NCBI GenBank assembly: GCA_000002445.1
Contig: CH464491.1
Coordinates: 224,001 to 288,000 of the forward strand
Origin: Trypanosoma brucei
Taxonomy: Eukaryota
Reading direction: 5' to 3'
DNA: 64,000 nt
Shown: positions 2,081 to 64,000 of the stretch, piece by piece
Position numbering within the stretch: position 1 is the first letter of the stretch
How the letters are laid out: the number at the start of each line of letters is the position of its first letter
Made by a program: the position numbers and the translations under genes
Notes under the pieces: model-generated
Databases searched by the model: none
Told to the model about the DNA's origin: nothing
The model's input: the letters and a program-made list of their open reading frames with translations, nothing else

Positions 2081-5000
2081 ATGAAGAAACTCAGATCATT
2101 TCTTCCCTGGGTTTGTGGTGTCTCATGTGGTGCTGCGGTTCCCTGCCACTCGTCCCGATGCACGTCAACGCTCGCTAGCACCTCATGGCACGGCAGAGAT
2201 TCGAATGCGCCTTCACACCGTCAACAAGCGTGCCTTTCATCAACTGAAAAGAGACTCCGACGCTCGGGCGAAAAGTTGGCGCGGCGTAGTACTTCCGCAG
2301 TGCTTATTAAAATAGCTGATCTCTCGTCAACGTTACCACCGCAGGGAATTCGGTGCTGCGAGGACTTGGAGGGGGCTCCGCTTAATACAGATGACCGGTT
2401 GCAGGTGTTGCTCAACACATGCATAAGTACCCCATCCGCTGAGTTGTATGAAGAATTAATAAGATCCAGTGCTGCACTCTACAGGAGCTCAGCCGCGCAG
2501 CACTGGGGTTTCTACGCCCGGGTGTTGGCAAACTATGGTGTGCAGTGCTTGGTAGATCAGAACACTGGGAAGGCAGTTGAGGTTCTCCGGAAAGCTATTG
2601 AAATAATTTCCTTCTTCGAGGCTGATACCGCTGTTCTACACCTCCGTGTCCTTCTGGCTAATGCTGCGGCGTGTGAGGGTCAGTACTTCGCTGCACTGTG
2701 TGAATACGAGTCGTGTCTTGCGGTGATGCGGGACTTTCCTGTGGAATCGTCACTGCGGCAACTCGTTTCTGGATCCGAGATGTATATGCCTCTTAGCCGA
2801 AGTTATATCAATGAAGACTACGATCGGTTTCTAGAGGATGAAGAGGTGGTCCTTCGTGCTTTGGGGCAGGGCCAAAAACAGGCGGATGCGTGTGTTGACA
2901 AAGCGGAGAAAGCCCGTGTCGCAATGACTATGGCTCGTTTGCAGCGAAGGCGAGGAGAGAAAGACGCAAGCCTGACGCTGTACACCTCGGCGCTTCGTAT
3001 GTTGCTTGGTGCTCACAACCCAGATTTGGAGATCCAAGTACTGCATGATATTGGTCTTCTGTTGTGTTTTGAGGTGCTAGACGTCACGCAGGGTCTACCG
3101 TACTTGCAAGCTGCAGCTGAGATGGCGTGCGACAGAGCACGCGTGGAGCTAAACGGCCCCAACTCTGATCAGGGCGAGAGCGGACCGAGTCACAGCAGCT
3201 ACCCACTGGTGCGTACAAATATGGAGAAGGGGCTGCGCGCTCGCCGTGCTGTGTTAGCCCTAGTCGACACAGCTGTTTGTTATGCAGAAAATGATGAGGT
3301 GGGGAAGTCGCTAGGGTTCTTTGAGGAGGCAAAGTCACTGATGACGGAATGTGGAATGCAAGAACACTCCGCGTGGATTTGTATGAAGTACGCGGACGCA
3401 CTTTCCAGCGCCTCGCTCCTTGATGCAGCTATACGCATCTACCTTGATGCCATGGACACAATTCGCCTTACGGAAATAAGTGGTGAGAAGATGCAGCTGG
3501 CATGTATGGGGATGGGAATGTATTTGACGCAGTCGGAAGTGGAAGGTCGTCTGGCACACTGTTTTCAAACCCGTGTAGGGGATTACCGGCGTGCTTGTGT
3601 GCATTACTGCCAAAGCATCCGACGGTGCGGGGTGGCGGTTCGCTGCCCATTCCAAGTTTCACAGGAAGGCAAAACACTGGCGGAGGAGGAAATAGATCCA
3701 GAAACCTTGTGCTGGATGCTTGAGAAGTATGCCGACTGCTGTGTGCGTGTCGGAAACGTTAAGATTGCTAAGGAGGTTTTAGAGCACCGCGTGCGTGTGG
3801 AGCAAGGTGTGGGGACACCATGTGCTGCAGCACTGTTGCATCTTGCCGAATTACACTCCAACGATAACGTTCCCAGAGCTATCGAGCTTTACACTCGCAT
3901 TCTATCACTCCCCCAAGATGCAGTGGAACCGGATACACTGCTTCAGTCGGCGTACAATTTTATCGCAGTTTGCTACCAATCGAAGGACGAGGACTTTGAG
4001 GCGGGACTTTCTAACGTGCAGTGTTCCCAATCCTCTGGTCAGGGCGATATGGTCGATGAAAATACACCGACTTCCAGTGAGCTAGCGCCAGTGGATTACG
4101 AGAATTCCATTATTGCAACATTCAAGAAGTCGGCTAACGTTATATTAGCTAGTCACACCGTTAACAAGACGAAGCTGTGTACAAATCGCGATGACGAACT
4201 GAAGACTCTTATGGCTCTTAGTCGTGCTGGTTTCTTTTGTCAGCGTCGTGGCTATGAATCAGGTGCGGAGGAGCTGTATCGGCTTGCAGTAGACTACGCA
4301 CGGCTGACTGACGTGAAATGTAAGGAATATTCCCGCGAACTTGCCGTTATGCTCGCAAACTACGCCACCGTTGTTGTGCACAAGGATACCGAGTTGGCCA
4401 AGAAACTGTATGAGGAAGCCGTAGCAACGTGCCCAACCGATGAGAACGTGTCGAATGCGGCTGCTTCCTTCTTTGTTCTGACGGCAAACTATGCGGAGGG
4501 TCGTGCGTGTATTGAGCGCCTTGTAGCAGCAACAACCACTAATGCTGTACTTCAGGGGTTATATGGGAAACTAGCATGGTTGGGTGTGGTTTGTTGGGAT
4601 GAACTTTTGCATGAGGAGCGCCTTCTTTGCTTAAAACATATGCTCTTTGCGTTAGGAACAGAGTCTGATGCGGTCGTTGCAGTCACTGCCAAATCGCAAC
4701 CAAACCCATTTGCGGGCCCTCTTCCGGAGGATTTTAAGCAGCGGCTGCTTCGTGGTGTTACGATATCGAATGATCAAGAGACGGTGAGTCTTGCTTGTTA
4801 CATAGCGCAAACGAAACTGTTTCATGAGGGGAGGTTTATCAACTCATGTTATAAAGTGGCACTAAAGCGATTCCCTCAAGGTGCAACCATTCTGGTAAAC
4901 TATGCGAAGTTCTGCGGTGATTACAATGCTGTAGTTCTCGCTCGCAAGTACTATGCTAAGGCTTTTGCTTTGTCACACACCGATCTGCGCATCACTGAAT

Positions 5001-25750: not shown

Positions 25751-28700
25751 ATGAGCGCAGGATTCGGAGGTGGTTTTGGCCAACCGGCAGCAACGGGATT
25801 TGGTCAGCAGCCTACCGGTGGTTTTGGGCAAGCACCGCAGGGTGGGGCGTTTGGCCAGGTTGCTCCAGCGGCTACTGGTTTTGGTCAGCCCTCTCAGAGT
25901 GCTGTCACCGGAGGTTTCGGGCAGACAAATACTGGTGGTTTCGGACAACCTGCAGCAACTGGTTTCGGTCAACCTGCTCAGGGTGCTGTCACCGGAGGTT
26001 TCGGGCAGACAAATACTGGTGGTTTCGGACAACCTGCAGCAACTGGTTTCGGTCAACCTGCTCAGAGTGCTGTCACCGGAGGTTTCGGGCAGACAAATAC
26101 TGGTGGTTTCGGTCAGCCTGCTCAGGGTGGGTTTGGCCAGACAGCGGCAGCGGCTAACGCCTTTGGACAGGCGGGCCCCTCAGGTGGCTTCGGGCAGACA
26201 AATACTGGTGGATTCGGCCAGCAGTCCAACAGTGGGTTTGGTCAAGCTGGTCGGGGCGCGACAGCCGGATTTGGGCAGCCCGGAACTGGTTTTGGTCAAC
26301 CAGCTACCGGAGGATTCGGTCAAGCAACTTCTGCCTCTCCATTTGGACAAGCAGCGGCAGGCCGCGGTGTTGGTGGTGGTTTTGGTACTGCGGCTGGCAC
26401 AGTTGGTGGTTTTGGGCAGCCTGCTGCGACGGGTGGTTTCGGTCAAACGGCAACTACAGGTGGATTCGGGCAGCCTGCTCAGGGAGCTGCAGCTGGTGGT
26501 TTTGGTCAACCAGCTACCGGAGGATTCGGTCAAGCAACTTCTGCCTCTCCATTTGGACAAGCAGCGGCAGGCCGCGGTGTTGGTGGTGGTTTTGGTACTG
26601 CGGCTGGTACAGTTGGTGGTTTTGGGCAGCCTGCTGCGCCGGGTGGTTTCGGTCAAACGGCAACTGCAGGTGGATTCGGGCAGCCCGCTCGGGGAGCTGC
26701 AGCTGGTGGTTTTGGTCAACCAGCTACCGGAGGATTCGGTCAGGCAACTTCTGCCTCTCCATTTGGACAAGCAGCGGCAGGCCGCGGTGTTGGTGGTGGT
26801 TTTGGTACTGCGGCTGGCACAGTTGGTGGTTTTGGGCAGCCTGCTGCGACGGGCGGTTTCGGTCAAACGGCAACTACAGGTGGATTCGGCCAGCCTGCTC
26901 AGGGAGCAAATACTTTCGGACAGGGGACTCCTTCGGCTGGTGGTTTTGGGCAGGCCGGTCGAGGCGTGACTGGAGGCTTCGGTCAAACTGGCGTGACCGG
27001 TGGTTTCGGGCAAACGGCAACTACAGGCGGATTTGGCCAACCTGCTCAGGGGGCTGCAACCGGTGGTTTTGGTCAAGCTGGTCGGGGCGCAGCGGACGGA
27101 TTTGGTCGACCTGCTCAGGGAGCTGCAGCTGGTGGTTTTGGTCAACCAGCTACCGGAGGATTCGGTCAAGCAACTTCTGCCTCTCCATTTGGACAAGCAG
27201 CGGCAGGCCGCGGTGTTGGTGGTGGTTTTGGTACTGCGGCTGGCACAGTTGGCGGTTTTGGGCAGCCTGCTGCGCCGGGTGGTTTCGGTCAAACGGCAAC
27301 TACAGGTGGATTCGGCCAGCCCGGTCGGGGAGCTGCAGCTGGTGGTTTTGGTCAACCAGCTACCGGAGGTCTAGGGCTCGCGGGCGGAAGTGGTTTTGGC
27401 GCTGCTGCCGGCGCTGGTGGGTTTGGGCAGCAAAGCACTGCTTCCCCGTGGGGTGGTGGTGCCACCCCTGCGGCACCTGTCGATGTGTCTCTCCTGAACC
27501 TTCCGGAGTTTGCCGACAAGCCTTATGGCAACGTTTTACTCTTTGCGCCTGAGAAGCCACCAAAAAAACCAATTTCAGTTGGTCATACACCATCTCCAGC
27601 TGCCCCCTTCAACCCCATCTCGGTACCACGTTACCAACAAAGGATACCGGTGGGTATCCCAGCACCCACAGTGTCCGCTAACGTGAAGCTTCAACCTACG
27701 CCTTTTTCAACCTCAGCCTTATCCTCAGTGGAGCTTCGTGAATTGTTGAACGCTTCAAAAGTTAACTTGGGGGTATCCGATGATGTCCAAAAAATCGACT
27801 CACCGAAGGTCTCGCGGGTGGTGGCAGCTGGTGAGAAGCCGCCTTCACATGATGCGGCGGTCTTTGCGCCTGTGTGCTCAAAAGAGGAGTATATACTGGA
27901 TCCACCTCTAGCCACACTACAGGGGCTTGCGGTTCGACAGTTGCAGGAGGTTTATGGTTTTAGTGTTTACCGCCGGGATGGTAAGTGCTCCGTTCACTTT
28001 CTTGAGCCTGTGAACCTTGTTCGATGTGATATCGCTGAGATCGTTGAGCTTCGTCCTAGTGGTGAAGTTAAGCTTTATCCATGTGTGCAAAACCCTCCCT
28101 CCATCGGCCAAGGTCTCAATGTGAAAGCTCGTGTAACCGTGAACGGTGTTATTGGGACGACAAGCAACGACCTTCTTATCCGCTGCCAGAAAGAAGGTAA
28201 CAGATTTGAGTCTTACGATGTGAACACGGGGACGTGGGTTTACGTGATGAATGTTGGCGACGATGGTCAAAATGAATATGACGATGCTGACCGCGAAGTT
28301 GACATAGTCGAGACTGATACGCAGGTCCAAGATGGTGAGCAGTTTCCTGTTGCCAATGATATTGCTGACGGCGGGGTGCGTGCTATTTCCCAGCTGGACA
28401 CATGTGCCCAATTGAAAAGGTCTGATCCACCGTCACCACCATTTCTACAACAGCAGCAGCAGGTGCCCGTATTGCACCAAAATGAAGCGGTTTCAGCATT
28501 GTCGTTTTCACGGTATGCCCCATTTGACGATCAGTCTCTTATTCTTCCGCAACGCACGCAGAGGGTGTCTGTGCTGCGACAAGCTGTGCACCGCCCTGCT
28601 GCGGATACAACCTCGGGGATCTCCGACTTCGAACTGCCGTACACGCTTCCCAGCCCCAAGAAAACCCCTCTCTGTGAGCGGAAGGGCCCGTTGGTCGTGA

Positions 28701-54925: not shown

Positions 54926-55197
54926 TCTAACTGCATCGTTACGCTGTGACCCAACAATCATCATCGGAAGGCGGATAAGTCGTACACTGCGTAGTGTGCA
55001 AAAACAAAACGAGAAAGAAGTAAAGTCATTCAAAAATAGTTTAAAAAATTTGCATTATCTCATAGCCAGTCTCAATTTCACAAAAAAGAAAGTAAAGAAA
55101 CAATTCAAGGGAATCAAAAAGAGAACGCAAGAAAATATAGAGACGATATTGACACGCAATACACTCGCAACGTCTTTGTGTGCGAGTCACCATAAAC

Positions 55198-58100
55198 ATG
55201 GCGTGTCAAGAGGTAAATAGTGAAGTTCCTGACAGCGATGTAGTTTTCCATGACACCATTTTTATGAGAAACAACAAACACGTCTCGGAGCAATGGATTC
55301 GTATTGGCGAATTGTACCCCAATGGTGCGAAGGAATCATTGCTCCCGGAGACGTTTGCACGCGAACAGTTCGGACAAGGAAGTCACTATGAGTGCTTCAT
55401 GCTTTCTGCCCTCGCCACTTTAGTAAAATTCCCCGACATCATTCGGAACTGCTTCGTGTCGAGGAATGTGCGGCGTGACGGGAGGTACACTTTTCAGTTC
55501 TTTCGTGACAAGGAATGGGTGAAGGTTGAAATTGATGACTCTGTTATGCTTGAGGATGATGAAGTTTTGTTCATCCGATCACCCACTAGTCATTGGTGGC
55601 CGCTACTGTTTGAGAAGGCTTATGCGAAATTCTACACCAGCTACGACAATTTGGAGGGTTGTACCTTACAGGAGGCGTACCATGACTTAACTGGCAACCC
55701 CGTGCTCAACATCCCCATGGACGCGAGGCTTGCCAAGGCTGCAGGTGTGGATGTGACTGGAGGTCAGTATTGGCTTGACCTCGCACAGAAGCTGCAATCC
55801 GGCCAGTTTGTTGGTTCGCTGCTGACGAGGGAAACGGACCTTGAGTCGATGGGTTTGCAGAGTGAGCAACAATACGGGATACTAGAGATTTTTTCGCTAA
55901 CTGGGACATCATCTGTAAGCGACATTGTGATTCACCTATACAACCCATTCGAGGACGAGGAATTCACGTACAAAGGCCCGCTGAACAGTAAGGACACGGA
56001 GTGGACCCCCAAACTCCGTGAAAAGTATAACGTGGATGATACGCACTCCATATTTCTTCCGCTACACGTTGCCCTGAAGATCGTAAATTCGGTGCAACTT
56101 TGCTACATATCCCCTATTGATGGTGACGCGACGTATTTTGATGATGAGTGGAAGGGTGAAACTGCGGGAGGGAACCCCACGAGTGTAACATGGCGCAAGA
56201 ACCCCCTATACTGCGTCAGGAACGCTGGGATCAACCCCGTGGAACTGGTTGTCGTGATTAAGCAGAAGGATCAACGTCATCTTTGGACATCAGAAGATGA
56301 TGAACTGATGTACAAAAGGTGTGGCATTGTTGTTGTTCAGAGTACCACAGTCACACAAATACCGACATATTTTGTAACAGGGAACAATCACAAAGCAATA
56401 CACAAGAGTTTGTTCCTAAACTCTCGTGAAGTGTCCAGTTTCGTTCGGATACCACCTAATTCCTTGTGCTACCTTGTACCTTCTTGCATGAAGAAGGGAG
56501 CGGAGAGTGCATTTACGCTCGCACTGTACCGGATGAAGCACCAAAATTATACGGAGTTCAATGTTAGTCGACTTGCTCTGCCGAAATTGCTGTGGCACAA
56601 TCCTATCCAAGAGAAACTCCAACTTCAAATGTTCACAAAGGATAGAAGGGATTTTTACGTCGATATACCCACTGACATTCACATTTTGATGCATCAAGAA
56701 AAACCGTTTGTAAGTGAGAAGACCGGTGGTGATGCTATGGTTCAGGATTACGTTGGTGTCTACCTTTATGATGACACGGACCGTAAGATTGGAGGTGTGC
56801 ACGCTGCGACGAATTTCAGGGAAACAAGTGTCTTGCATCGCCTTCCTCGTAGTGGTCGTTATGCTATTTCAATTACGTGTCCCCGGGCAAGTGGTGAAGT
56901 ACCCATTGCTCTCACAATTGTTGGTTCTCCTGATGCTAATGTTCGTATTGTTGAGGCTCCTGATGATGCCTCCATGTTTGATGATGAGGATGATATTGCA
57001 GAGGGTGATGAGGATGCTACTGTTTCTAATCCCATTGACTACATTCCTGTTGCTGGTGGAGGGCAGGTGTTCACTGAGGTACCCGATAGTACGGTCCCAT
57101 TTGAAGATAAACGTTTCATGGTTGATAATAAGATTATGACGAATGAACCGTGGATCCACATTGGTGACCTTTATCCTGAGGGAAAGACGCGCTCACTTTT
57201 GCCGGAGCGTCTGAGTCGTGAGCAGTTTGAGCAGGGTGAACACTTCGAGTGCTGTTGTCTGACCGCTTTTGCAGCGCTGGTGGAGCACCACCCCAACGTA
57301 ATTCGTGACGCGTTTGTGACGAAGGCTGTACGACGTGACGGACGGTACACGTTCCGGTTCCACCGCTACGGTCAGTGGGTGAAGGTGGAGATTGATGATC
57401 GTATTCCCCTTCTTGGTGGGAAAACTTTATTCTGTCGATCATCTGATGGTTATTGGTGGCCACTACTACTAGAGAAGGCGTATGCTAAGTTCTACACACT
57501 ATACCAAAATATTGAGGGATGTACGCTGCGGGAACTGTTTTACGACCTAACAGGGCTTCCTGTGCTTAGCATTCCGATGGAGTTGAAACTCGCGAAGGCT
57601 GTACTGTGTGATGTTGATGATGTGAGTTTTTGGGTTGAGCTCAGTGAGGGTCTGAAGGATTGTGCGTGTGCTGCCGTTGCACGCCCCGGTTTCGATGACA
57701 CCCTTGGTTTGTCCAATGGGCAAGAGTACGCTGTCCTTGATGTGGTATCGTTAACGGATGGTGAGGCCTCTTCCATATCTGATCTTGTTGTAAAACTTCA
57801 TAATCCGTTTCTGGAGACTGAGTACAAAGGCCCTATGAATGCAAGCGATGCTGCGTGGTCGTCTGAGCTGCGTACCCGTCTATGTCCGGAGCGACGGGAT
57901 ACTATCTACATTCCCGTGGAAGTTTTCTGCAATGCATTTCTCACTGTGGAGAAAGTTATGGTGCGTGGTCTTATTGTTCCCGGGTGGCAATTCAACAGTG
58001 AATGGGGTGAGGGCACGAACGGTGGCAATCCAACACTTGTGACGTGGCGTGAGAACCCCATTTACGTTGTGCAGAACACTGCGGATACCCCGTTACAGAT

Positions 58101-61100
58101 TATTGCAATGATTGGGCAACCTGATCAGCGTCGCGTGCTACACCTTCTCCCCGAGCAAGAGGTAAACTACGTTCAATGTGGGTTGTCGCTTGCCAAGAGT
58201 ATTAAGGGTGAATCGATCCCGACATACTTGCTGACACCCAATAGTCATGTTTTGATTCATAAGGGCCGTTTCTTTTCTTACCGTGAAGTAGCTGATGTTA
58301 TTGTTGTTCCGGGGAATAGCCTCACTTTTCTCGTTCCAAGCGCGATGTTTCGTGACAAAACGAAGTTTCTTCTCTCGTACTGGTACTCTAGTGCGAACGA
58401 CAGGAACAGTGTTACAATTGAGCGTCTTAATTTGGGTGTTGCGCGGCATCTTCCAGCCATTGCCCATCTCACTGTCAAAGAGAGGGTGAGGGAGCAAGTG
58501 GATTTTATTGTCGATGTTCCCACTGACGTTCATATCCTTCTTCGTCAAGAAAAACCCTGCCACGGTGACAGTGTTTCAAATGCCTTGACAGATGATTTTC
58601 TTGCCATGTATTTGTATAATTCTGAAGATGATCAACTCAGTGGTGTTGTGACCGCGACCAACTACAGGGAGATGGGAATAGTTCATCACCTCTCCGAAGG
58701 GGGGAGATATGTAATTTACGTTGTTTGCCCTCGTGCTGAGGGTGAGGTTCCTTTGAGAATAGAAATTGTCGCTATGCAGTCGGCCCAGGTTCGCACAGTG
58801 GAAGCATTACCCTTGTGCAAATCAATCTTGCAGGTGGAAAAAGAGCTAAAGCTGAGTACTGGGTCCTTGCCATACTCACCACTCCTTATAAGCGAAGGGG
58901 ATCTCAAAAATTTCTCGGGGCGACTATCGGACAACTCTATGCGGTTGGAGAGTTCCAGTGACCCTGACTTATCTTTCCTTGGAGCCGAGGTGGAAGGAAT
59001 TCCCACCCTGGATCTCACTCTGATGAGCGACTCTTCATTTTCTGAGATGGCACGTGAGCGCATGCAATTAAAGCGGGATCCCATTGCTAATGCGAGTCGT
59101 TTGGCTGAGGTTGAAGATAGTATGGTGGCACGTGCGAATGCTATTGCCAAGGAAATGCATTTGAGAGAGCGGCGATATCTGAACCCTGAGCCTGAGGGTG
59201 TCCCCCTTGAGTTGCTTCCTTTAAACGAGGACGAAGTTGTGAGTGAGAAGGAGGACCGCCTCCGTGCGCTGAATCGTAAGGAGCAGAAGGACGAGAAACT
59301 GTTACGGAGTCTTGAGGACGTGATAGCGGACCGTGTACACGAGATCGCGAGGGAGCTGAAGGTGAGTGAACGTGATCTGTTCCTTGATCCCACTCCAGGA
59401 GGTTTCCCTGTAGCGCAGCTTCCGCTGGACGAAGACGATGTGTTTCATTCACTCGAAGTGGAGCGACTGCAACTGCGACTGCGTCAGGATTCCCTTGCTA
59501 GCAAAGAAAGAATTGCTGAACTGGAAAACATGATGAATTGTAGGACTACGGAGCTCATCGACAAAATGAAAGAAGAGATTAGGAAGTTTCTTGACCCCAC
59601 CCCACTAGGAATACCACTTGAAGAACTAAAACTGGACGAACACGACAATTATGTTGCAAAAGAGATAAGCCTAATTGGAATGATAAGAAAAGGGAAAAAA
59701 GAATCACAGGAAGCAATTTCAATTCGGGAACAGTTACTTCAAATAGAATACGCTGTTGCCAAGGAACACTTAAACAACTTTAGGATACAGTACCTCGGAG
59801 ACGACATTGAGGGTCGCCAACCGAACGAATTAAACTTAGAAGAAGAAGAAACTTATATGCAGATGGAGAGAAAATTGATTGAATACTACAACAGTAATCA
59901 ACGTAACAGCGAAGAAGCGCAGAAAATAAGAGTAAATCTACTTCACAAAGCTACAAAAGCATCAAAGCATTTAAATCGATCCGAGAGAAAAAACTACATT
60001 AAGAGAGACAGACTCGAGATTTCAATATCAAACATTCCGCTTGATGACAACGAACAGTTCACAACATTAGAAGCGGAACGAATAAGAAAAAAAAGAAATA
60101 AAAAAAATTCAGAGGTTGAACAAATAGAAATGGAACTCAACAATATAGCACAACAGCTAGCTAAACTGAAAGCATCCGATAGCCGCAGCTTCCTTGATCC
60201 TATGCCAGAAGGAGTGCCGTTGAGTGAGCTTGAATTGGACAAGGATGAGAAGTTCAGCACCATGGAAGAGGAGCGTCGTAAGCTTATTGCTGAGGATCGT
60301 GAAGATAATGCAACACGCATTGCTGAATTAGAAGCAGCAATGAACGAGTATTCACATGAGCTTGCTAAACTGAAAGCATCCGATAGCCGCAGCTTCCTTG
60401 ATCCTATGCCAGAAGGAGTGCCGTTGAGTGAGCTTGAATTGGATAAGGATGAGAAGTTCAGCACCATGGAAGAGGAGCGTCGTAAGCTTATTGCTGAGGA
60501 TCGTGAAGGTAATGCTGCGCGCATTGCTGAATTAGAAGCAGCAATGAACGAGCATTCACATGAGCTTGCTAAACTGAAAGCATCCGATAGCCGCAGCTTC
60601 CTTGATCCTATGCCAGAAGGAGTGCCGTTGAGTGAGCTTGAATTGGATAAGGATGAGAAGTTCAGCACCATGGAAGAGGAGCGTCGTAAGCTTATTGCTG
60701 AGGATCGTGAAGATAATGCAACACGCATTGCTGAATTAGAAGCAGCAATGAACGAGTATTCACATGAGCTTGCTAAACTGAAAGCATCCGATAGCCGCAG
60801 CTTCCTTGATCCTATGCCAGAAGGAGTGCCGTTGAGTGAGCTTGAATTGGATAAGGATGAGAAGTTCAGCACCATGGAAGAGGAGCGTCGTAAGCTTATT
60901 GCTGAGGATCGTGAAGGTAATGCTGCACGCATTGCTGAACTAGAAGCTGCAATGAACGAGCATTCACATGAGCTTGCTAAACTGAAAGCATCCGATAGCC
61001 GCAGCTTCCTTGATCCTATGCCAGAAGGAGTGCCGTTGAGTGAGCTAGGATTGGATAAGGATGAGAAGTTCAGCACCATGGAAGAGGAGCGTCGTAAGCT

Positions 61101-64000
61101 TATTGCTGAGGATCGTGAAGGTAATGCAACACGCATTGCTGAATTAGAAGCAGCAATGAACGAGCATTCACATAAGCTTGCTAAACTGAAAGCATCCGAT
61201 AGCCGCAGCTTCCTTGATCCTATGCCAGAAGGAGTGCCGTTGAGTGAGCTTGAATTGGATAAGGATGAGAAGTTCAGCACCATGGAAGAGGAGCGTCGTA
61301 AGCTTATTGCTGAGGATCGTGAAGGTAATGCTGCACGCATTGCTGAACTAGAAGCTGCAATGAACGAGCATTCACATGAGCTTGCTAAACTGAAAGCATC
61401 CGATAGCCGCAGCTTCCTTGATCCTATGCCAGAAGGAGTGCCACTAAGTGAGCTTGAATTGGATAAGGATGAGAAGTTCAGCACCATGGAAGAGGAGCGT
61501 CGTAAGCTTATTGCTGAGGATCGTGAAGGTAATGCTGCACGCATTGCTGAATTAGAAGCAGCAATGAACGAGCATTCACATGAGCTTGCTAAACTGAAAG
61601 CATCCGATAGCCGCAGCTTCCTTGATCCTATGCCAGAAGGAGTGCCGTTGAGTGAGCTTGAATTGGACAAGGATGAGAAGTTCAGCACCATGGAAGAGGA
61701 GCGTCGTAAGCTTATTGCTGAGGATCGTGAAGGTAATGCTGCACGCATTGCTGAATTAGAAGCAGCAATGAACGAGCATTCACATGAGCTTGCTAAACTG
61801 AAAGCATCCGATAGCCGCAGCTTCCTTGATCCTATGCCAGAAGGAGTGCCGTTGAGTGAGCTTGAATTGGATAAGGATGAGAAGTTCAGCACCATGGAAG
61901 AGGAGCGTCGTAAGCTTATTGCTGAGGATCGTGAAGGTAATGCTGCACGCGTTGCTGAACTAGAAGCTGCAATGAACGAGCATTCACATGAGCTTGCTAA
62001 ACTGAAAGCATCCGATAGCCGCAGCTTCCTTGATCCTATGCCAGAAGGAGTGCCGTTGAGTGAGCTAGGATTGGATAAGGATGAGAAGTTCAGCACCATG
62101 GAAGAGGAGCGTCGTAAGCTTATTGCTGAGGATCGTGAAGGTAATGCTGCACGCATTGCTGAACTAGAAGCAGCAATGAACGAGCATTCACATGAGCTTG
62201 CTAAACTGAAAGCATCCGATAGCCGCAGCTTCCTTGATCCTATGCCAGAAGGAGTGCCGTTGAGTGAGCTTGAATTGGATAAGGATGAGAAGTTCAGCAC
62301 CATGGAAGAGGAGCGTCGTAAGCTCATTGCTGAGGATCGTGAAGGTAATGCTGCACGCATTGCTAGACTTGAGGAGAGGATGAACGAACTTTCCCGTGAA
62401 CTCGCAAGAATGAAGTTGAAGGATCGCAGCTTCCTTGATCCTATGCCAGAAGGAGTGCCACTAAGTGAGCTTGAATTGGATAAGGATGAGAAGTTCAGCA
62501 CCATGGAAGAGGAGCGTCGTAAGCTCATTGCTGAGGATCGTGAAGGTAATGCAACACGCATTGCTGAATTAGAAGCAGCTATGAACGAGCATTCACATGA
62601 GCTTGCTAAACTGAAAGCATCCGATAGCCGCAGCTTCCTTGATCCTATGCCAGAAGGAGTGCCGTTGAGTGAGCTTGAATTGGATAAGGATGAGAAGTTC
62701 AGCACCATGGAAGAGGAGCGTCGTAAGCTCATTGCTGAGGATCGTGAAGGTAATGCAACACGCATTGCTGAATTAGAAGCAGCAATGAGCGAGCATTCAC
62801 ATGAGCTTGCTAAACTGAAAGCATCCGATAGCCGCAGCTTCCTTGATCCTATGCCAGAAGGAGTGCCACTAAGTGAGCTTGAATTGGATAAGGATGAGAA
62901 GTTCAGCACCATGGAAGAGGAGCGTCGTAAGCTTATTGCTGAGGATCGTGAAGGTAATGCTGCACGCATTGCTGAACTAGAAGCAGCTATGAACGAGCAT
63001 TCACATGAGCTTGCTAAACTGAAAGCATCCGATAGCCGCAGCTTCCTTGATCCTATGCCAGAAGGAGTGCCGCTAAGTGAGCTTGAATTGGATAAGGATG
63101 AGAAGTTCAGCACCATGGAAGAGGAGCGTCGTAAGCTTATTGCCGAGGATCGTGAAGGTAATGCTGCACGCATTGCTGAACTAGAAGCAGCGATGAACGA
63201 GCATTCACATGAGCTTGCTAAACTGAAAGCATCCGATAGCCGCAGCTTCCTTGATCCTATGCCAGAAGGAGTGCCGTTGAGTGAGCTTGAATTGGACAAG
63301 GATGAGAAGTTCAGCACCATGGAAGAGGAGCGTCGTAAGCTTATTGCTGAGGATCGTGAAGGTAATGCTGCACGCATTGCTGAACTAGAAGCAGCAATGA
63401 ACGAGCATTCACATGAGCTTGCTAAACTGAAAGCATCCGATAGCCGCAGCTTCCTTGATCCTATGCCAGAAGGAGTGCCGTTGAGTGAGCTTGAATTGGA
63501 TAAGGATGAGAAGTTCAGCACCATGGAAGAGGAGCGTCGTAAGCTTATTGCTGAGGATCGTGAAGGTAATGCTGCACGCATTGCTGAACTAGAAGCAGCA
63601 ATGAACGAGCATTCACATGAGCTTGCTAAACTGAAAGCATCCGATAGCCGCAGCTTCCTTGATCCTATGCCAGAAGGAGTGCCGTTGAGTGAGCTAGGAT
63701 TGGATAAGGATGAGAAGTTCAGCACCATGGAAGAGGAGCGTCGTAAGCTTATTGCTGAGGATCGTGAAGGTAATGCAGCACGCATTGCTGAACTAGAAGC
63801 AGCAATGAACGAGCATTCACATGAGCTTGCTAAACTGAAAGCATCCGATAGCCGCAGCTTCCTTGATCCTATGCCAGAAGGAGTGCCGTTGAGTGAGCTT
63901 GAATTGGATAAGGATGAGAAGTTCAGCACCATGGAAGAGGAGCGTCGTAAGCTTATTGCTGAGGATCGTGAAGGTAATGCTGCACGCATTGCTGAATTAG
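55198..64000 (+). CDS. ClpGM6: Giant calpain-like protein with two tandem calpain-type cysteine-protease-like domains followed by a 68-aa (204-bp) tandem repeat array (ClpGM6 / GM6-antigen type). It is 5'-partial only in the sense that the ORF runs off the window end. More than 2,930 codons are open.
   Basis: It is not in the supplied ORF track (no stop in the window). There is an ATG at 55198 after an A-rich leader and polyY tract (54880-54925). I translated frame 1 from 55198 by hand and found no stop to 64000. The two homologous about 640-aa units begin ...WIRIGELYPNGAKESLLPE...QGSHYECFMLSAL...RDGRYTFQFF...WWPLLFEKAYAKFYTSY... and ...WIHIGDLYPEGKTRSLLPE...QGEHFECCCLTAF...RDGRYTFRFH...WWPLLLEKAYAKFYTLY.... 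These are the calpain domain II landmarks (QGxxGDCW -> QGxHxECx; WVxLLEKAYAK). Then come about 19 near-identical 68-aa repeats (...ELAKLKASDSRSFLDPMPEGVPLSELELDKDEKFSTMEEERRKLIAEDREGNAARIAELEAAMNEHSH...). Confidence 0.85.
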   Translation, partial: MACQEVNSEVPDSDVVFHDTIFMRNNKHVSEQWIRIGELYPNGAKESLLPETFAREQFGQGSHYECFMLSALATLVKFPDIIRNCFVSRNVRRDGRYTFQFFRDKEWVKVEIDDSVMLEDDEVLFIRSPTSHWWPLLFEKAYAKFYTSYDNLEGCTLQEAYHDLTGNPVLNIPMDARLAKAAGVDVTGGQYWLDLAQKLQSGQFVGSLLTRETDLESMGLQSEQQYGILEIFSLTGTSSVSDIVIHLYNPFEDEEFTYKGPLNSKDTEWTPKLREKYNVDDTHSIFLPLHVALKIVNSVQLCYISPIDGDATYFDDEWKGETAGGNPTSVTWRKNPLYCVRNAGINPVELVVVIKQKDQRHLWTSEDDELMYKRCGIVVVQSTTVTQIPTYFVTGNNHKAIHKSLFLNSREVSSFVRIPPNSLCYLVPSCMKKGAESAFTLALYRMKHQNYTEFNVSRLALPKLLWHNPIQEKLQLQMFTKDRRDFYVDIPTDIHILMHQEKPFVSEKTGGDAMVQDYVGVYLYDDTDRKIGGVHAATNFRETSVLHRLPRSGRYAISITCPRASGEVPIALTIVGSPDANVRIVEAPDDASMFDDEDDIAEGDEDATVSNPIDYIPVAGGGQVFTEVPDSTVPFEDKRFMVDNKIMTNEPWIHIGDLYPEGKTRSLLPERLSREQFEQGEHFECCCLTAFAALVEHHPNVIRDAFVTKAVRRDGRYTFRFHRYGQWVKVEIDDRIPLLGGKTLFCRSSDGYWWPLLLEKAYAKFYTLYQNIEGCTLRELFYDLTGLPVLSIPMELKLAKAVLCDVDDVSFWVELSEGLKDCACAAVARPGFDDTLGLSNGQEYAVLDVVSLTDGEASSISDLVVKLHNPFLETEYKGPMNASDAAWSSELRTRLCPERRDTIYIPVEVFCNAFLTVEKVMVRGLIVPGWQFNSEWGEGTNGGNPTLVTWRENPIYVVQNTADTPLQIIAMIGQPDQRRVLHLLPEQEVNYVQCGLSLAKSIKGESIPTYLLTPNSHVLIHKGRFFSYREVADVIVVPGNSLTFLVPSAMFRDKTKFLLSYWYSSANDRNSVTIERLNLGVARHLPAIAHLTVKERVREQVDFIVDVPTDVHILLRQEKPCHGDSVSNALTDDFLAMYLYNSEDDQLSGVVTATNYREMGIVHHLSEGGRYVIYVVCPRAEGEVPLRIEIVAMQSAQVRTVEALPLCKSILQVEKELKLSTGSLPYSPLLISEGDLKNFSGRLSDNSMRLESSSDPDLSFLGAEVEGIPTLDLTLMSDSSFSEMARERMQLKRDPIANASRLAEVEDSMVARANAIAKEMHLRERRYLNPEPEGVPLELLPLNEDEVVSEKEDRLRALNRKEQKDEKLLRSLEDVIADRVHEIARELKVSERDLFLDPTPGGFPVAQLPLDEDDVFHSLEVERLQLRLRQDSLASKERIAELENMMNCRTTELIDKMKEEIRKFLDPTPLGIPLEELKLDEHDNYVAKEISLIGMIRKGKKESQEAISIREQLLQIEYAVAKEHLNNFRIQYLGDDIEGRQPNELNLEEEETYMQMERKLIEYYNSNQRNSEEAQKIRVNLLHKATKASKHLNRSERKNYIKRDRLEISISNIPLDDNEQFTTLEAERIRKKRNKKNSEVEQIEMELNNIAQQLAKLKASDSRSFLDPMPEGVPLSELELDKDEKFSTMEEERRKLIAEDREDNATRIAELEAAMNEYSHELAKLKASDSRSFLDPMPEGVPLSELELDKDEKFSTMEEERRKLIAEDREGNAARIAELEAAMNEHSHELAKLKASDSRSFLDPMPEGVPLSELELDKDEKFSTMEEERRKLIAEDREDNATRIAELEAAMNEYSHELAKLKASDSRSFLDPMPEGVPLSELELDKDEKFSTMEEERRKLIAEDREGNAARIAELEAAMNEHSHELAKLKASDSRSFLDPMPEGVPLSELGLDKDEKFSTMEEERRKLIAEDREGNATRIAELEAAMNEHSHKLAKLKASDSRSFLDPMPEGVPLSELELDKDEKFSTMEEERRKLIAEDREGNAARIAELEAAMNEHSHELAKLKASDSRSFLDPMPEGVPLSELELDKDEKFSTMEEERRKLIAEDREGNAARIAELEAAMNEHSHELAKLKASDSRSFLDPMPEGVPLSELELDKDEKFSTMEEERRKLIAEDREGNAARIAELEAAMNEHSHELAKLKASDSRSFLDPMPEGVPLSELELDKDEKFSTMEEERRKLIAEDREGNAARVAELEAAMNEHSHELAKLKASDSRSFLDPMPEGVPLSELGLDKDEKFSTMEEERRKLIAEDREGNAARIAELEAAMNEHSHELAKLKASDSRSFLDPMPEGVPLSELELDKDEKFSTMEEERRKLIAEDREGNAARIARLEERMNELSRELARMKLKDRSFLDPMPEGVPLSELELDKDEKFSTMEEERRKLIAEDREGNATRIAELEAAMNEHSHELAKLKASDSRSFLDPMPEGVPLSELELDKDEKFSTMEEERRKLIAEDREGNATRIAELEAAMSEHSHELAKLKASDSRSFLDPMPEGVPLSELELDKDEKFSTMEEERRKLIAEDREGNAARIAELEAAMNEHSHELAKLKASDSRSFLDPMPEGVPLSELELDKDEKFSTMEEERRKLIAEDREGNAARIAELEAAMNEHSHELAKLKASDSRSFLDPMPEGVPLSELELDKDEKFSTMEEERRKLIAEDREGNAARIAELEAAMNEHSHELAKLKASDSRSFLDPMPEGVPLSELELDKDEKFSTMEEERRKLIAEDREGNAARIAELEAAMNEHSHELAKLKASDSRSFLDPMPEGVPLSELGLDKDEKFSTMEEERRKLIAEDREGNAARIAELEAAMNEHSHELAKLKASDSRSFLDPMPEGVPLSELELDKDEKFSTMEEERRKLIAEDREGNAARIAEL
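60150..64000 (+). repeat. A 204-bp (68-codon) tandem repeat array, about 19 copies in the window and continuing past the window end. It is in-frame coding sequence of the ClpGM6-like gene.
   Basis: The string cttgctaaactgaaagcatccgatagccgcagc recurs at 60361, 60565, 60769 ... 63823 with an exact spacing of 204 bp. One unit (about 62341-62541) is 201 bp and diverged. There are a few recurrent SNVs between units. Confidence 0.95.

What the first reader, a model, noticed from the sequence alone, without database searches (positions are those of the whole stretch)
59190..60150. Gradient from degenerate to perfect repeats at the array's 5' edge
Upstream of the homogenised 204-bp array there are at least 5 recognisable but diverged copies of the same about 68-aa unit. 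Examples are YLNPEPEGVPLELLPLNEDE at about 59191, LFLDPTPGGFPVAQLPLDEDD at about 59380, FLDPTPLGIPLEELKLDEHD at about 59587, a copy at about 59795, and ISNIPLDDNEQFTTLEAER at about 60020. Their spacing is 189 to 225 bp. This is the classic signature of an array whose interior is kept uniform by unequal crossing-over or gene conversion while its edge units decay. It also shows that the FLDPxPEGxPLxELxLDxDExF core is the conserved, probably functional, part of the unit.
Basis: seen in the sequence. Interest (0 to 1): 0.55.

Follow-up and report, generated by a model that had tools for sequence, protein, structure and literature searches.

The report
Old diverged repeats flanking GM6 array
The diverged repeat copies are real, but they are six ancient, individually conserved modules of the known Trypanosoma brucei flagellum-attachment protein ClpGM6 that meet the near-identical repeat array at a sharp step, not decaying edge copies forming a gradient.

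Summary
The ORF (ATG 55198, running off the window at 64000) is 100% identical over 2934 aa to T. b. brucei TREU927 XP_828202.1. This is the 5' fragment of ClpGM6, the GM6 antigen gene.

Diverged copies of the 68-aa unit (Pfam DUF7623) do lie upstream of the 204-bp array. There are six, contiguous and in frame, starting at 58975, 59176, 59380, 59587, 59791 and 59995. The first lies outside the reported span.

There is no gradient. Identity to the canonical unit is flat at 28-41% aa, and DNA identity is at background. The three units nearest the array are the most degenerate. The switch to about 100% identity happens within about 10 nt (60149-60160).

The units are not decaying. Each has a colinear best match in T. 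cruzi. Units -6 to -4 also match by position in T. congolense, T. conorhini, Leishmania and Novymonas, better than they match T. brucei's own canonical unit.

The interior does look homogenised: 97.4% nt identity, 95.8% at third codon positions, and a different consensus in each species.

Conserved 204-bp repeats flanked by degenerate repeats, explained by unequal crossing-over or gene conversion, were published for the T. cruzi homologue H49 in 2011.

The finding is ordinary and largely already known.

The parts
55198..64000 (+). ORF of the ClpGM6 5' fragment (Tb11.57.0008 / XP_828202.1). It runs off the window end with no stop codon.
   Evidence: The frame is open from the stop at 55150 to 64000. 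It has 0 mismatches over 2934 aa to TREU927 XP_828202.1. The antibody peptides KASDSRSFLDPMPE and ERRKLIAEDREGN of Hayes 2014 (PMC4121973) occur in the canonical unit.
55258..56529 (+). First calpain-like module (Peptidase_C2 aa 21-302, Calpain_III aa 315-444).
   Evidence: Pfam PF00648 E 1.4e-70 with 2 stretches; PF01067 E 4.7e-7.
57115..58770 (+). Second calpain-like module. The boundaries are approximate.
   Evidence: This is the second Peptidase_C2 stretch. It is colinear with T. conorhini P0001 and T. cruzi P0002.
58771..58974 (+). Non-repeat linker.
   Evidence: No Pfam hit at E <= 10 (protein 9) and no phmmer hit.
58975..59175 (+). Flank unit -6 (67 aa, FLGAEVEGIPTLDLTLMSDSSF...).
   Evidence: DUF7623 68.5 bits. 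It is 37% identical to the canonical unit, with z 10.4. It is the rank-1 positional match in all 8 homologues, at 60% identity to T. congolense.
59176..59379 (+). Flank unit -5 (68 aa, YLNPEPEGVPLELLPLNEDE...).
   Evidence: DUF7623 67.7 bits. It is 36% identical to the canonical unit, against 66% to T. congolense and 59% to T. cruzi unit #2.
59380..59586 (+). Flank unit -4 (69 aa, FLDPTPGGFPVAQLPLDEDD...).
   Evidence: DUF7623 69.4 bits. It is the rank-1 positional match in all seven homologues whose sequence covers that position.
59587..59790 (+). Flank unit -3 (68 aa, FLDPTPLGIPLEELKLDEHD...).
   Evidence: DUF7623 28.9 bits. Its best hit is T. cruzi unit #9, which is itself the weakest T. 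cruzi unit at 22 bits.
59791..59994 (+). Flank unit -2 (68 aa, YLGDDIEGRQPNELNLEEEETYM...), the most degenerate unit.
   Evidence: DUF7623 17.6 bits, below the cut-off of 27; z 4.6. It is a reciprocal best hit with T. cruzi unit #10, sharing EGR, YM and SERK[ND].
59995..60189 (+). Flank unit -1 (65 aa, YIKRDRLEISISNIPLDDNEQF...). Its last 11 residues (LAKLKASDSRS) are already canonical.
   Evidence: DUF7623 47.0 bits. Its best hit is T. cruzi unit #11.
59587..60150 (+). A-rich, GC3-poor patch covering units -3 to -1.
   Evidence: GC is 0.36, GC3 is 0.34 and A at third codon positions is 0.47. Elsewhere in the ORF GC3 is 0.42-0.53 and A3 is 0.16-0.24.
60149..60160 (+). 5' junction of the homogenised array, where identity steps from background to about 100%.
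   Evidence: The last mismatches are at 60153, 60154 and 60159. TRF starts the array at 60155.
60190..64000 (+). Homogenised GM6 array: 19 FLDPMPEG starts with a 204-bp (68-aa) period. It continues beyond the window; the TREU927 protein has 61 starts.
62365..62430 (+). Diverged 3' third of interior unit c11. The unit spans 62230-62430, is 201 bp long, and ends ...ARIARLEERMNELSRELARMKLKDRS.
   Evidence: It has 31 mismatches to the consensus and is one codon short. The same variant recurs twice more in XP_828202.1.

Best explanation
The region 58975-60189 encodes six contiguous, in-frame DUF7623 modules of ClpGM6, the known T. brucei flagellum-attachment-zone protein. They lie between its two N-terminal calpain-like modules and its central GM6 array.

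These six units are not worn-down copies of the present array unit. They are old, position-specific modules that were already distinct in the common ancestor of T. brucei and T. cruzi. For units -6 to -4 this extends to the ancestor shared with Leishmania.

The array next to them is a block derived from one unit type. It is kept nearly identical, most likely by unequal exchange or gene conversion between copies (inferred). At the DNA level the flank units are at background similarity to the array, so there is no homology for such exchange to act on (inferred). This would explain why the boundary is a step about 10 nt wide and not a gradient.

Relative to T. cruzi H49/calpain, T. brucei keeps flank units #1-3 and #9-11 and lacks #4-8 and #12-15. 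Its array therefore abuts the #11 equivalent.

At the protein level each unit is predicted to consist of an extended Pro/Leu-rich motif, a 13-residue helix, a DPxxN loop and a 26-residue helix. The flank units would thus continue the same modular helical rod as the array (predicted, not shown). They are under weaker constraint than the calpain-like part but remain under constraint.
For: Identity of the gene:
- 0 mismatches over 2934 aa to TREU927 XP_828202.1.
- Antibody peptides match.
- Pfam domain architecture fits.

Reality of the six units.

Step, not gradient.

Positional correspondence:
- Units -6, -5 and -4 are rank-1 at the colinear position in T. congolense, two T. cruzi genes, T. conorhini, L. 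donovani, L. guyanensis and Novymonas. In L. tarentolae, -5 ties with the array units.
- The triple -3, -2, -1 aligns best with T. cruzi P0015 residues 1803-1996 (units #9-11), at 103 bits and E 3e-29. Every other register scores 65 bits or less.
- All 10 T. brucei flank units, counting the four at the 3' edge taken from XP_828203.1, have colinear best hits in T. cruzi.

Homogenisation of the interior:
- 97.4% nt identity overall and 95.8% at third codon positions, with variants shared between units in a mosaic pattern.
- Species-specific consensus units.

No DNA homology between flank and array.

Constraint: between TREU927 and T. b. gambiense DAL972 there are 7 aa differences in the 405 flank residues, against 3 in 1259 in the calpain-like part and linker (Fisher p = 0.003). 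The frame and unit phase are kept.

Fold: AlphaFold2 on units -6 to -4 with a 37-row alignment gives pLDDT 96.5 and pTM 0.86.

Precedent: Galetovic et al. 2011 (PMC3214072) describe conserved 204-bp H49 repeats flanked by degenerate repeats, with the same recombination explanation.
Against: - For units -3 to -1, unit-by-unit best hits are ambiguous in T. congolense and Leishmania, with ranks from 1 to 28. Their correspondence rests mainly on T. cruzi.
- T. cruzi units #4-6 and #9-11 look like an old internal duplication. 'Loss of #4-8 in T. brucei' could therefore instead be a gain in the T. cruzi lineage.
- Some of the compared genes may be old paralogues, not orthologues. These are T. congolense P0021, T. 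cruzi contig L001 and T. vivax P0092, which carry two extra upstream units and no homogenised block.
- No recombination event is observed directly.
- No dN/dS could be computed, because no DNA from close relatives was available.
- The TREU927 array assembly is known to be unreliable (Hayes 2014), so unit order inside the array is uncertain.
- The three units nearest the array are the most diverged and compositionally odd. Some lineage-specific relaxation next to the array is therefore not excluded.
Confidence: 0.8

Rival explanations
1. First reader's model. The flank units are former array copies at the edge that escape homogenisation and decay neutrally, giving a gradient of increasing divergence away from the array.
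For: - The interior is homogenised.
- Flank units evolve faster than the calpain-like part between T. brucei subspecies.
- Inside the TREU927 array, the outer 10 units at each end carry slightly more amino-acid variants than the inner ones, 2.3 against 0.98 (one-sided p = 0.02).
- Units -3 to -1 are compositionally drifted.
Against: - Similarity does not trend with distance, and the most degenerate units are the ones nearest the array.
- The boundary is a step about 10 nt wide.
- Flank units are closer to their positional counterparts in other species than to their own canonical unit.
- The frame is intact in two subspecies.
- Units -6 to -4 fold with high confidence.
Confidence: 0.08
2. Independent recent amplification. 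The ancestor had only a long series of diverged units. T. brucei, T. cruzi and Leishmania each separately amplified one unit, so there has been no long-term concerted evolution. Galetovic 2011 proposed this for T. cruzi.
For: - The 5' junctions differ. In T. brucei the array starts after the #11 equivalent, at unit position about 57. In T. cruzi it starts after #15, at position about 22.
- T. vivax P0092 and T. cruzi contig L001 have 50-63 diverged units and no homogenised block.
- The best T. cruzi hit of the T. brucei canonical unit is flank unit #3 (score 181), not the H49 canonical unit (162).
Against: - The 3' junction falls at nearly the same unit position in the two species, 48 against 52.
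- The non-homogenised tails of the junction units share RNLA where the canonical units have [HQ]ELA.
- Canonical units are mostly mutual best hits between species. T. cruzi and L. donovani are reciprocal, T. cruzi points to T. brucei, and T. brucei points to L. donovani.
Confidence: 0.3
3. Assembly artefact. The sharp junction and apparent homogeneity come from a collapsed or misjoined repeat assembly.
For: Hayes 2014 state that the array is collapsed in the genome assembly and that the gene is split into two fragments. Odd interior variants such as c11 could mark misjoins.
Against: - The flank region is unique sequence.
- It is reproduced, including the junction residues ...NNIAQQLAKLKASDSRSFLDPMPEG, in the independent T. 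b. gambiense DAL972 assembly with only 7 aa differences.
- Hayes used nt 4302-4960 of the ORF (window 59499-60157) as a gene-specific RNAi target.
Confidence: 0.03

Closest known systems
ClpGM6 / GM6 antigen of Trypanosoma brucei (Tb927.11.1090; fragments Tb11.57.0008 and Tb11.47.0036; Muller 1992; Hayes et al. 2014, PMC4121973)
   Same: It is this gene. The window ORF is 100% identical to XP_828202.1. It has near-perfect 68-aa repeats and N-terminal calpain-like domains, and the published antibody peptides are present.
   Different: Nothing differs. In the passages read here, the papers speak only of 'nearly identical repeats' and do not describe the six diverged flank units.
H49/calpain (FRA/JL7 antigen) of Trypanosoma cruzi (Galetovic et al. 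2011, PMC3214072)
   Same: It is a homologous gene with two N-terminal calpain-like domains, a block of conserved 204-bp (68-aa) repeats flanked by degenerate repeats, and a C-terminal calpain domain. The authors explain the pattern by unequal crossing-over or gene conversion, with the degenerate repeats as remnants of ancestral repeats. The flank units correspond one-to-one with those of T. brucei.
   Different: T. cruzi has 15 flank units before its array against 6 in T. brucei, and a different 5' junction. The consensus units share only 35 of 68 residues. The authors thought the expansion was specific to T. cruzi, whereas T. brucei and Leishmania also have homogenised blocks.
Pfam DUF7623 (PF24610)
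   Same: The 64-position model corresponds to the 68-aa unit. Five of the six flank units and the canonical unit pass its cut-off individually.
   Different: Unit -2 scores 17.6 bits, below the cut-off of 27. The family has no assigned function and no solved structural relative.
Concerted evolution of tandem arrays with diverged flanking copies (general model from established knowledge, for example homogenised alpha-satellite cores with divergent monomers at the edges)
   Same: The core is homogeneous even at silent sites, each species has its own consensus, and diverged copies sit at both edges.
   Different: Here the flank copies are coding and ordered, and each is conserved across species. 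The transition is a step, not the graded divergence seen in non-coding satellites.

Membership tests
T. brucei ClpGM6 (GM6 antigen gene) | Sequence identity to the annotated TREU927 gene product | tested here: met
   0 mismatches over 2934 aa to XP_828202.1 / EAN79090.1.
T. brucei ClpGM6 (GM6 antigen gene) | Many near-perfect 68-aa GM6 repeats carrying the published epitope peptides | tested here: met
   19 unit starts in the window and 61 in the full fragment. KASDSRSFLDPMPE and ERRKLIAEDREGN are both present.
T. brucei ClpGM6 (GM6 antigen gene) | N-terminal calpain-like domains | tested here: met
   PF00648 E 1.4e-70 with two stretches; PF01067 E 4.7e-7.
T. brucei ClpGM6 (GM6 antigen gene) | Lack of the calpain catalytic triad | not tested
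   Hayes 2014 state this. It was not checked residue by residue here.
T. brucei ClpGM6 (GM6 antigen gene) | [quoted passage not shown] | not testable with these tools
   These are experimental results of Hayes 2014.
Pfam DUF7623 | Each flank unit reaches the gathering score of 27 bits on its own | tested here: met
   Met for five of the six units: 68.5, 67.7, 69.4, 28.9 and 47.0 bits. Unit -2 (59791-59994) scores 17.6 bits and fails alone.
Concertedly evolving tandem array | Near-identity between units, including at synonymous sites | tested here: met
   97.4% nt identity overall and 95.8% at third codon positions; 13 synonymous and 7 non-synonymous variants.
Concertedly evolving tandem array | Units more alike within a species than between species | tested here: met
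   The T. brucei and T. cruzi canonical units share 35 of 68 residues. L. donovani and L. tarentolae each have their own consensus.
Concertedly evolving tandem array | Graded divergence of units towards the array edge | tested here: not met
   The flank shows flat 28-41% identity and a step about 10 nt wide. Inside the array there is only a weak excess of variants in the outer units (p = 0.02, or 0.14 without the variant units).
Concertedly evolving tandem array | Direct evidence of unequal exchange, that is copy-number or variant-order polymorphism between strains | not testable with these tools
   This needs long-read assemblies of several strains. The available assemblies are collapsed.
Decaying (pseudogenised) edge repeats | Loss of reading frame or of unit phase | tested here: not met
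   The frame is open and unit lengths are 67, 68, 69, 68, 68 and 65 aa. The frame is also intact in DAL972.
Decaying (pseudogenised) edge repeats | No position-specific conservation in other species | tested here: not met
   Colinear best hits are found in T. cruzi for all six units. For -6 to -4 they are also found in T. congolense, T. conorhini, Leishmania and Novymonas.

The most novel reading that the evidence does not exclude
The flank units on both sides of the array form a fixed, ordered scaffold of position-specific modules conserved across Trypanosomatidae, each perhaps with its own partner or role.

Under this reading the homogenised array is itself ancestral. Its 3' junction lies within about 4 codons of the same unit position in T. 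brucei and T. cruzi, with orthologous post-junction tails. The array would then have evolved in concert in each lineage since their common ancestor. This contradicts the published view that the expansion is specific to T. cruzi.

T. brucei would then be a reduced form: flank units #4-8 and #12-15 are absent and the three units abutting the array have drifted to A-rich codons.
Probability: 0.35. Interest if true: 0.4.

Novelty: already known. Interest (0 to 1): 0.18.

Why it matters
Little changes for the field. The gene, its repeat family and the picture of a conserved core flanked by degenerate repeats are already published.

The analysis does have some practical value:
- The flank (59499-60157 was already used for RNAi) is the unique, assembly-safe handle on a gene whose array cannot be assembled.
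- The six flank units and the four at the 3' edge give ordered landmarks for comparing ClpGM6/H49 orthologues and for asking where the array boundary sits in each species.
- The confident helical-hairpin model of DUF7623 offers a starting point for thinking about how repeat number could set the length of a FAZ component.
- GM6 and H49 repeats are serodiagnostic antigens. The diverged flank units are unlikely to cross-react with them, as Galetovic 2011 reported weak cross-reaction for the T. cruzi units.

Tried and rejected
1. DNA-level self-alignment of the flank against the canonical unit gives 58-61% identity. This is no better than unrelated coding chunks of the same ORF, so the repeats are visible only at the protein level. 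TRF and a dot-plot would miss them.
2. The first protein search by word index returned only 3 homologues and not the T. brucei protein itself. The exhaustive HMMER search was needed.
I rebuilt it from exact substrings of the proteins found in the searches.
5. A literature search for degenerate GM6 repeats in T. brucei found nothing relevant.
6. I mapped units -3 to -1 by position onto units 4-6 of other species. This is ambiguous in T. congolense and Leishmania and was replaced by the better-scoring #9-11 register in T. cruzi.
7. dN/dS was not attempted. No DNA of close relatives was obtainable with the tools, and T. cruzi and T. conorhini are too distant because silent sites are saturated.
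8. I considered whether the step is an assembly artefact and rejected this, because T. b. gambiense reproduces the junction.
Full report
WHAT IS THERE

The + strand carries one open frame from the stop at 55150 (first ATG at 55198) to the end of the window. Its 2934 residues are identical, with no mismatch, to T. b. brucei TREU927 XP_828202.1. This is the 5' fragment (Tb11.57.0008) of ClpGM6, the calpain-like flagellum-attachment-zone protein that carries the GM6 antigen repeats. The two peptides Hayes et al. 2014 used to raise their anti-GM6 antibody occur in the canonical unit.

Pfam finds two Peptidase_C2 stretches, a Calpain_III domain and DUF7623 (PF24610). DUF7623 is the curated model of the 68-aa unit.

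TRF confirms the 204-bp array at 60155-64000, with 18.9 copies and 96% matches. Nineteen FLDPMPEG starts lie in the window.

THE OBSERVATION

Searching the 1664 residues upstream of the array with the canonical unit gives six hits and nothing else. They start at aa 1260, 1327, 1395, 1464, 1532 and 1600, which is window 58975, 59176, 59380, 59587, 59791 and 59995. The units are contiguous and in frame, with lengths 67, 68, 69, 68, 68 and 65 aa. The spacing is therefore 201-207 bp, and 195 bp for the last unit, not 189-225 bp.

- Shuffle z-scores are 4.6-14.2.
- Scored one by one against Pfam DUF7623, the units give 68.5, 67.7, 69.4, 28.9, 17.6 and 47.0 bits, against a cut-off of 27.
- The canonical unit gives 78.6 bits, and a 68-aa linker used as a control gives nothing.

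So the diverged copies are real. There are six of them. The first lies outside the reported span, and the fifth (59791) is only marginal on its own.

NO GRADIENT

From distal to proximal, identity to the canonical unit is 37, 36, 41, 28, 33 and 37%. Rank correlations with position are -0.23 to +0.12. For Pfam bits the correlation is -0.66, so the units nearest the array are the worst.

At the DNA level the units are 58-61% identical to the canonical unit. Unrelated in-frame pieces of the same ORF give the same figure, 55.8 +/- 2.2% with a maximum of 60%.

In a codon-anchored alignment of unit -1, the last mismatches are at 60153, 60154 and 60159, and everything from 60160 on is identical. The transition is a step about 10 nt wide. 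It lies inside the C-terminal helix of unit -1, not at a unit boundary.

THE FLANK UNITS ARE OLD, NOT DECAYING

An exhaustive HMMER search, followed by name look-ups, gave homologues from these species:
- T. congolense (P0021)
- T. cruzi (P0015 and P0090)
- T. conorhini (P0001)
- T. vivax
- T. grayi
- four Leishmania species
- Novymonas

Units -6, -5 and -4 are the top-scoring match of the first three units after the linker in every one of these. The one exception is -5 in L. tarentolae, where it ties with the array units. Identity is 60, 66 and 47% to T. congolense, 48, 59 and 52% to T. cruzi, and 39-49% to Leishmania and Novymonas. Against other T. brucei units the same three show 36-41% to the canonical unit and 19-33% to the other flank units.

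Units -3, -2 and -1 are harder to place. Their colinear best hits are T. cruzi units #9, #10 and #11. BLASTP of the 201-aa triple gives 103 bits (E 3e-29) in that register, and 65 bits or less in every other register. T. cruzi unit #9 is also that gene's weakest unit at 22 bits. The degeneracy of unit -3 is therefore inherited, not recent. In T. congolense and Leishmania the assignment of these three units is ambiguous.

The 3' edge of the T. brucei array is outside the window and was read from XP_828203.1. It shows the same picture: a sharp junction followed by four diverged units, each with its colinear best hit in T. cruzi. Altogether 10 of 10 T. brucei flank units map colinearly onto T. 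cruzi.

Between TREU927 and T. b. gambiense the flank has 7 amino-acid differences in 405 residues. The calpain-like part and linker have 3 in 1259 (Fisher p = 0.003). The flank is thus under weaker constraint, but its frame, unit phase and position-specific signatures are kept.

THE ARRAY INTERIOR

The 17 full units in the window are 97.4% identical pairwise, and 95.8% identical at third codon positions. Thirteen of the 20 variants are synonymous, and 14 of the 20 are shared by two or more units, nearly always non-adjacent ones.

Each species has its own consensus. T. brucei and T. cruzi share 35 of 68 residues, and L. donovani and L. tarentolae have their own again. This is the pattern expected of concerted evolution. 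The exchange process itself is inferred, not observed.

The array is not perfectly uniform:
- Unit c11 (62230-62430) is 201 bp long and has 31 mismatches in its last 70 nt. The same variant recurs twice further along the TREU927 protein.
- In the 60 units of that protein, the outer ten at each end carry slightly more variants than the inner ones, 2.3 against 0.98 (p = 0.02, or 0.14 without the variant units). The assembly of this array is known to be unreliable, so this weak edge effect should not be leaned on.

WHERE THE BOUNDARIES SIT IN OTHER SPECIES

In T. cruzi P0090 the H49 array starts after flank unit #15, at unit position about 22. In T. brucei it starts after the #11 equivalent, at position about 57. 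The 5' boundary is therefore not conserved. T. brucei lacks #4-8 and #12-15. Alternatively T. cruzi gained some of these, because #4-6 and #9-11 resemble each other.

The 3' boundary is conserved. It falls at unit position 48 in T. brucei and 52 in T. cruzi, and the non-homogenised tails share RNLA where the canonical units have [HQ]ELA. Canonical units are mostly mutual best hits between T. brucei, T. cruzi and L. donovani. This leans towards an ancestral array, but independent amplification of orthologous units is not excluded.

Some homologues have 50-63 diverged units and no homogenised block at all. These are T. cruzi contig L001 and T. vivax P0092. They may be old paralogues.

THE 'CONSERVED CORE'

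Over 64 units from three species, positions 1-22 ([FY]LDPxPxG[VI]PLxxLPLxxDxxF) average 2.06 bits per column and the remainder averages 1.65 bits. Strongly conserved positions continue through both helices: L25, E26, R29, L32, D36, P37, N40, I44, E48, [LM]51, N52, R54, A59 and R67. The motif is the densest conserved cluster but not the only conserved part.

The T. brucei canonical unit departs from the family consensus at several conserved positions: P15 to E, P37 to R, R54 to H and A55 to S.

WHAT IS ALREADY KNOWN

Hayes et al. [quoted passage not shown] They used ORF nt 4302-4960, which is units -4 to -1, as a unique RNAi target.

Galetovic et al. 2011 describe the T. cruzi homologue. It has blocks of conserved 204-bp repeats flanked by degenerate repeats, and they explain this by unequal crossing-over or gene conversion, with the degenerate repeats as remnants of ancestral repeats.

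I found no paper in the searchable library that describes the T. brucei flank units specifically.

VERDICT

- It is wrong about a gradient and about decay.
- It is half right about the conserved core.

The incremental points from this analysis are the unit-by-unit positional correspondence across species, the conserved 3' junction, and a confident fold model for DUF7623.

Noticed in passing
window 59587-60150 (+): This is a sharply bounded A-rich patch covering flank units -3 to -1. GC is 0.36, GC3 is 0.34 and A at third codon positions is 0.47, against A3 of 0.16-0.24 in the rest of the ORF. Synonymous positions are affected, so amino-acid choice alone does not explain it. The cause is unknown.
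   Followed up: partly
window 62230-62430 (+): Interior array unit c11 is 201 bp long. Its last 70 nt or so are strongly diverged, with 31 mismatches and the tail ARIARLEERMNELSRELARMKLKDRS. The same variant recurs twice later in XP_828202.1, and a different variant sits near the 3' end in XP_828203.1. It may be a second unit subtype, a relic or an assembly join.
   Followed up: partly
window 59994-63989 (-): A 1331-aa antisense ORF spans the array. It is almost certainly open only because the 204-bp unit has no stop in that frame.
   Followed up: no
window 1-55000: Every ORF of 250 aa or more outside the array lies on the + strand, apart from one overlapping - strand ORF at 26180-27355. This fits a single trypanosomatid polycistronic transcription unit.
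   Followed up: no
L001 (T. cruzi contig MKKV01000324.1) 2641-12100: About 50 diverged DUF7623 units lie in one reading direction with no homogenised block. In the distal part, 'FLD...PEGVPL..LPLD' units alternate with 'G[LV]D...P.GIPL.LL.PH.D' units, giving a 136-aa super-repeat. The gene is split by N runs and an apparent frame change.
   Followed up: partly
P0092 (T. vivax KAH8619012.1, 4887 aa): It has 63 consecutive diverged DUF7623 units, and neighbouring units are at most 46% identical. The first eight after an initial partial unit map in order onto T. cruzi flank units #1-#8. It is probably an all-degenerate paralogue like T. cruzi XP_809993.
   Followed up: partly
P0007 / P0012 (L. 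donovani, L. tarentolae): In Leishmania, as in T. brucei, the last diverged unit before the array already carries the canonical C-terminal residues (...RAHDLACDKKWADRDR in L. donovani). The 5' junction therefore again lies inside the long helix and not at the unit boundary.
   Followed up: no
[not shown]
   Followed up: yes
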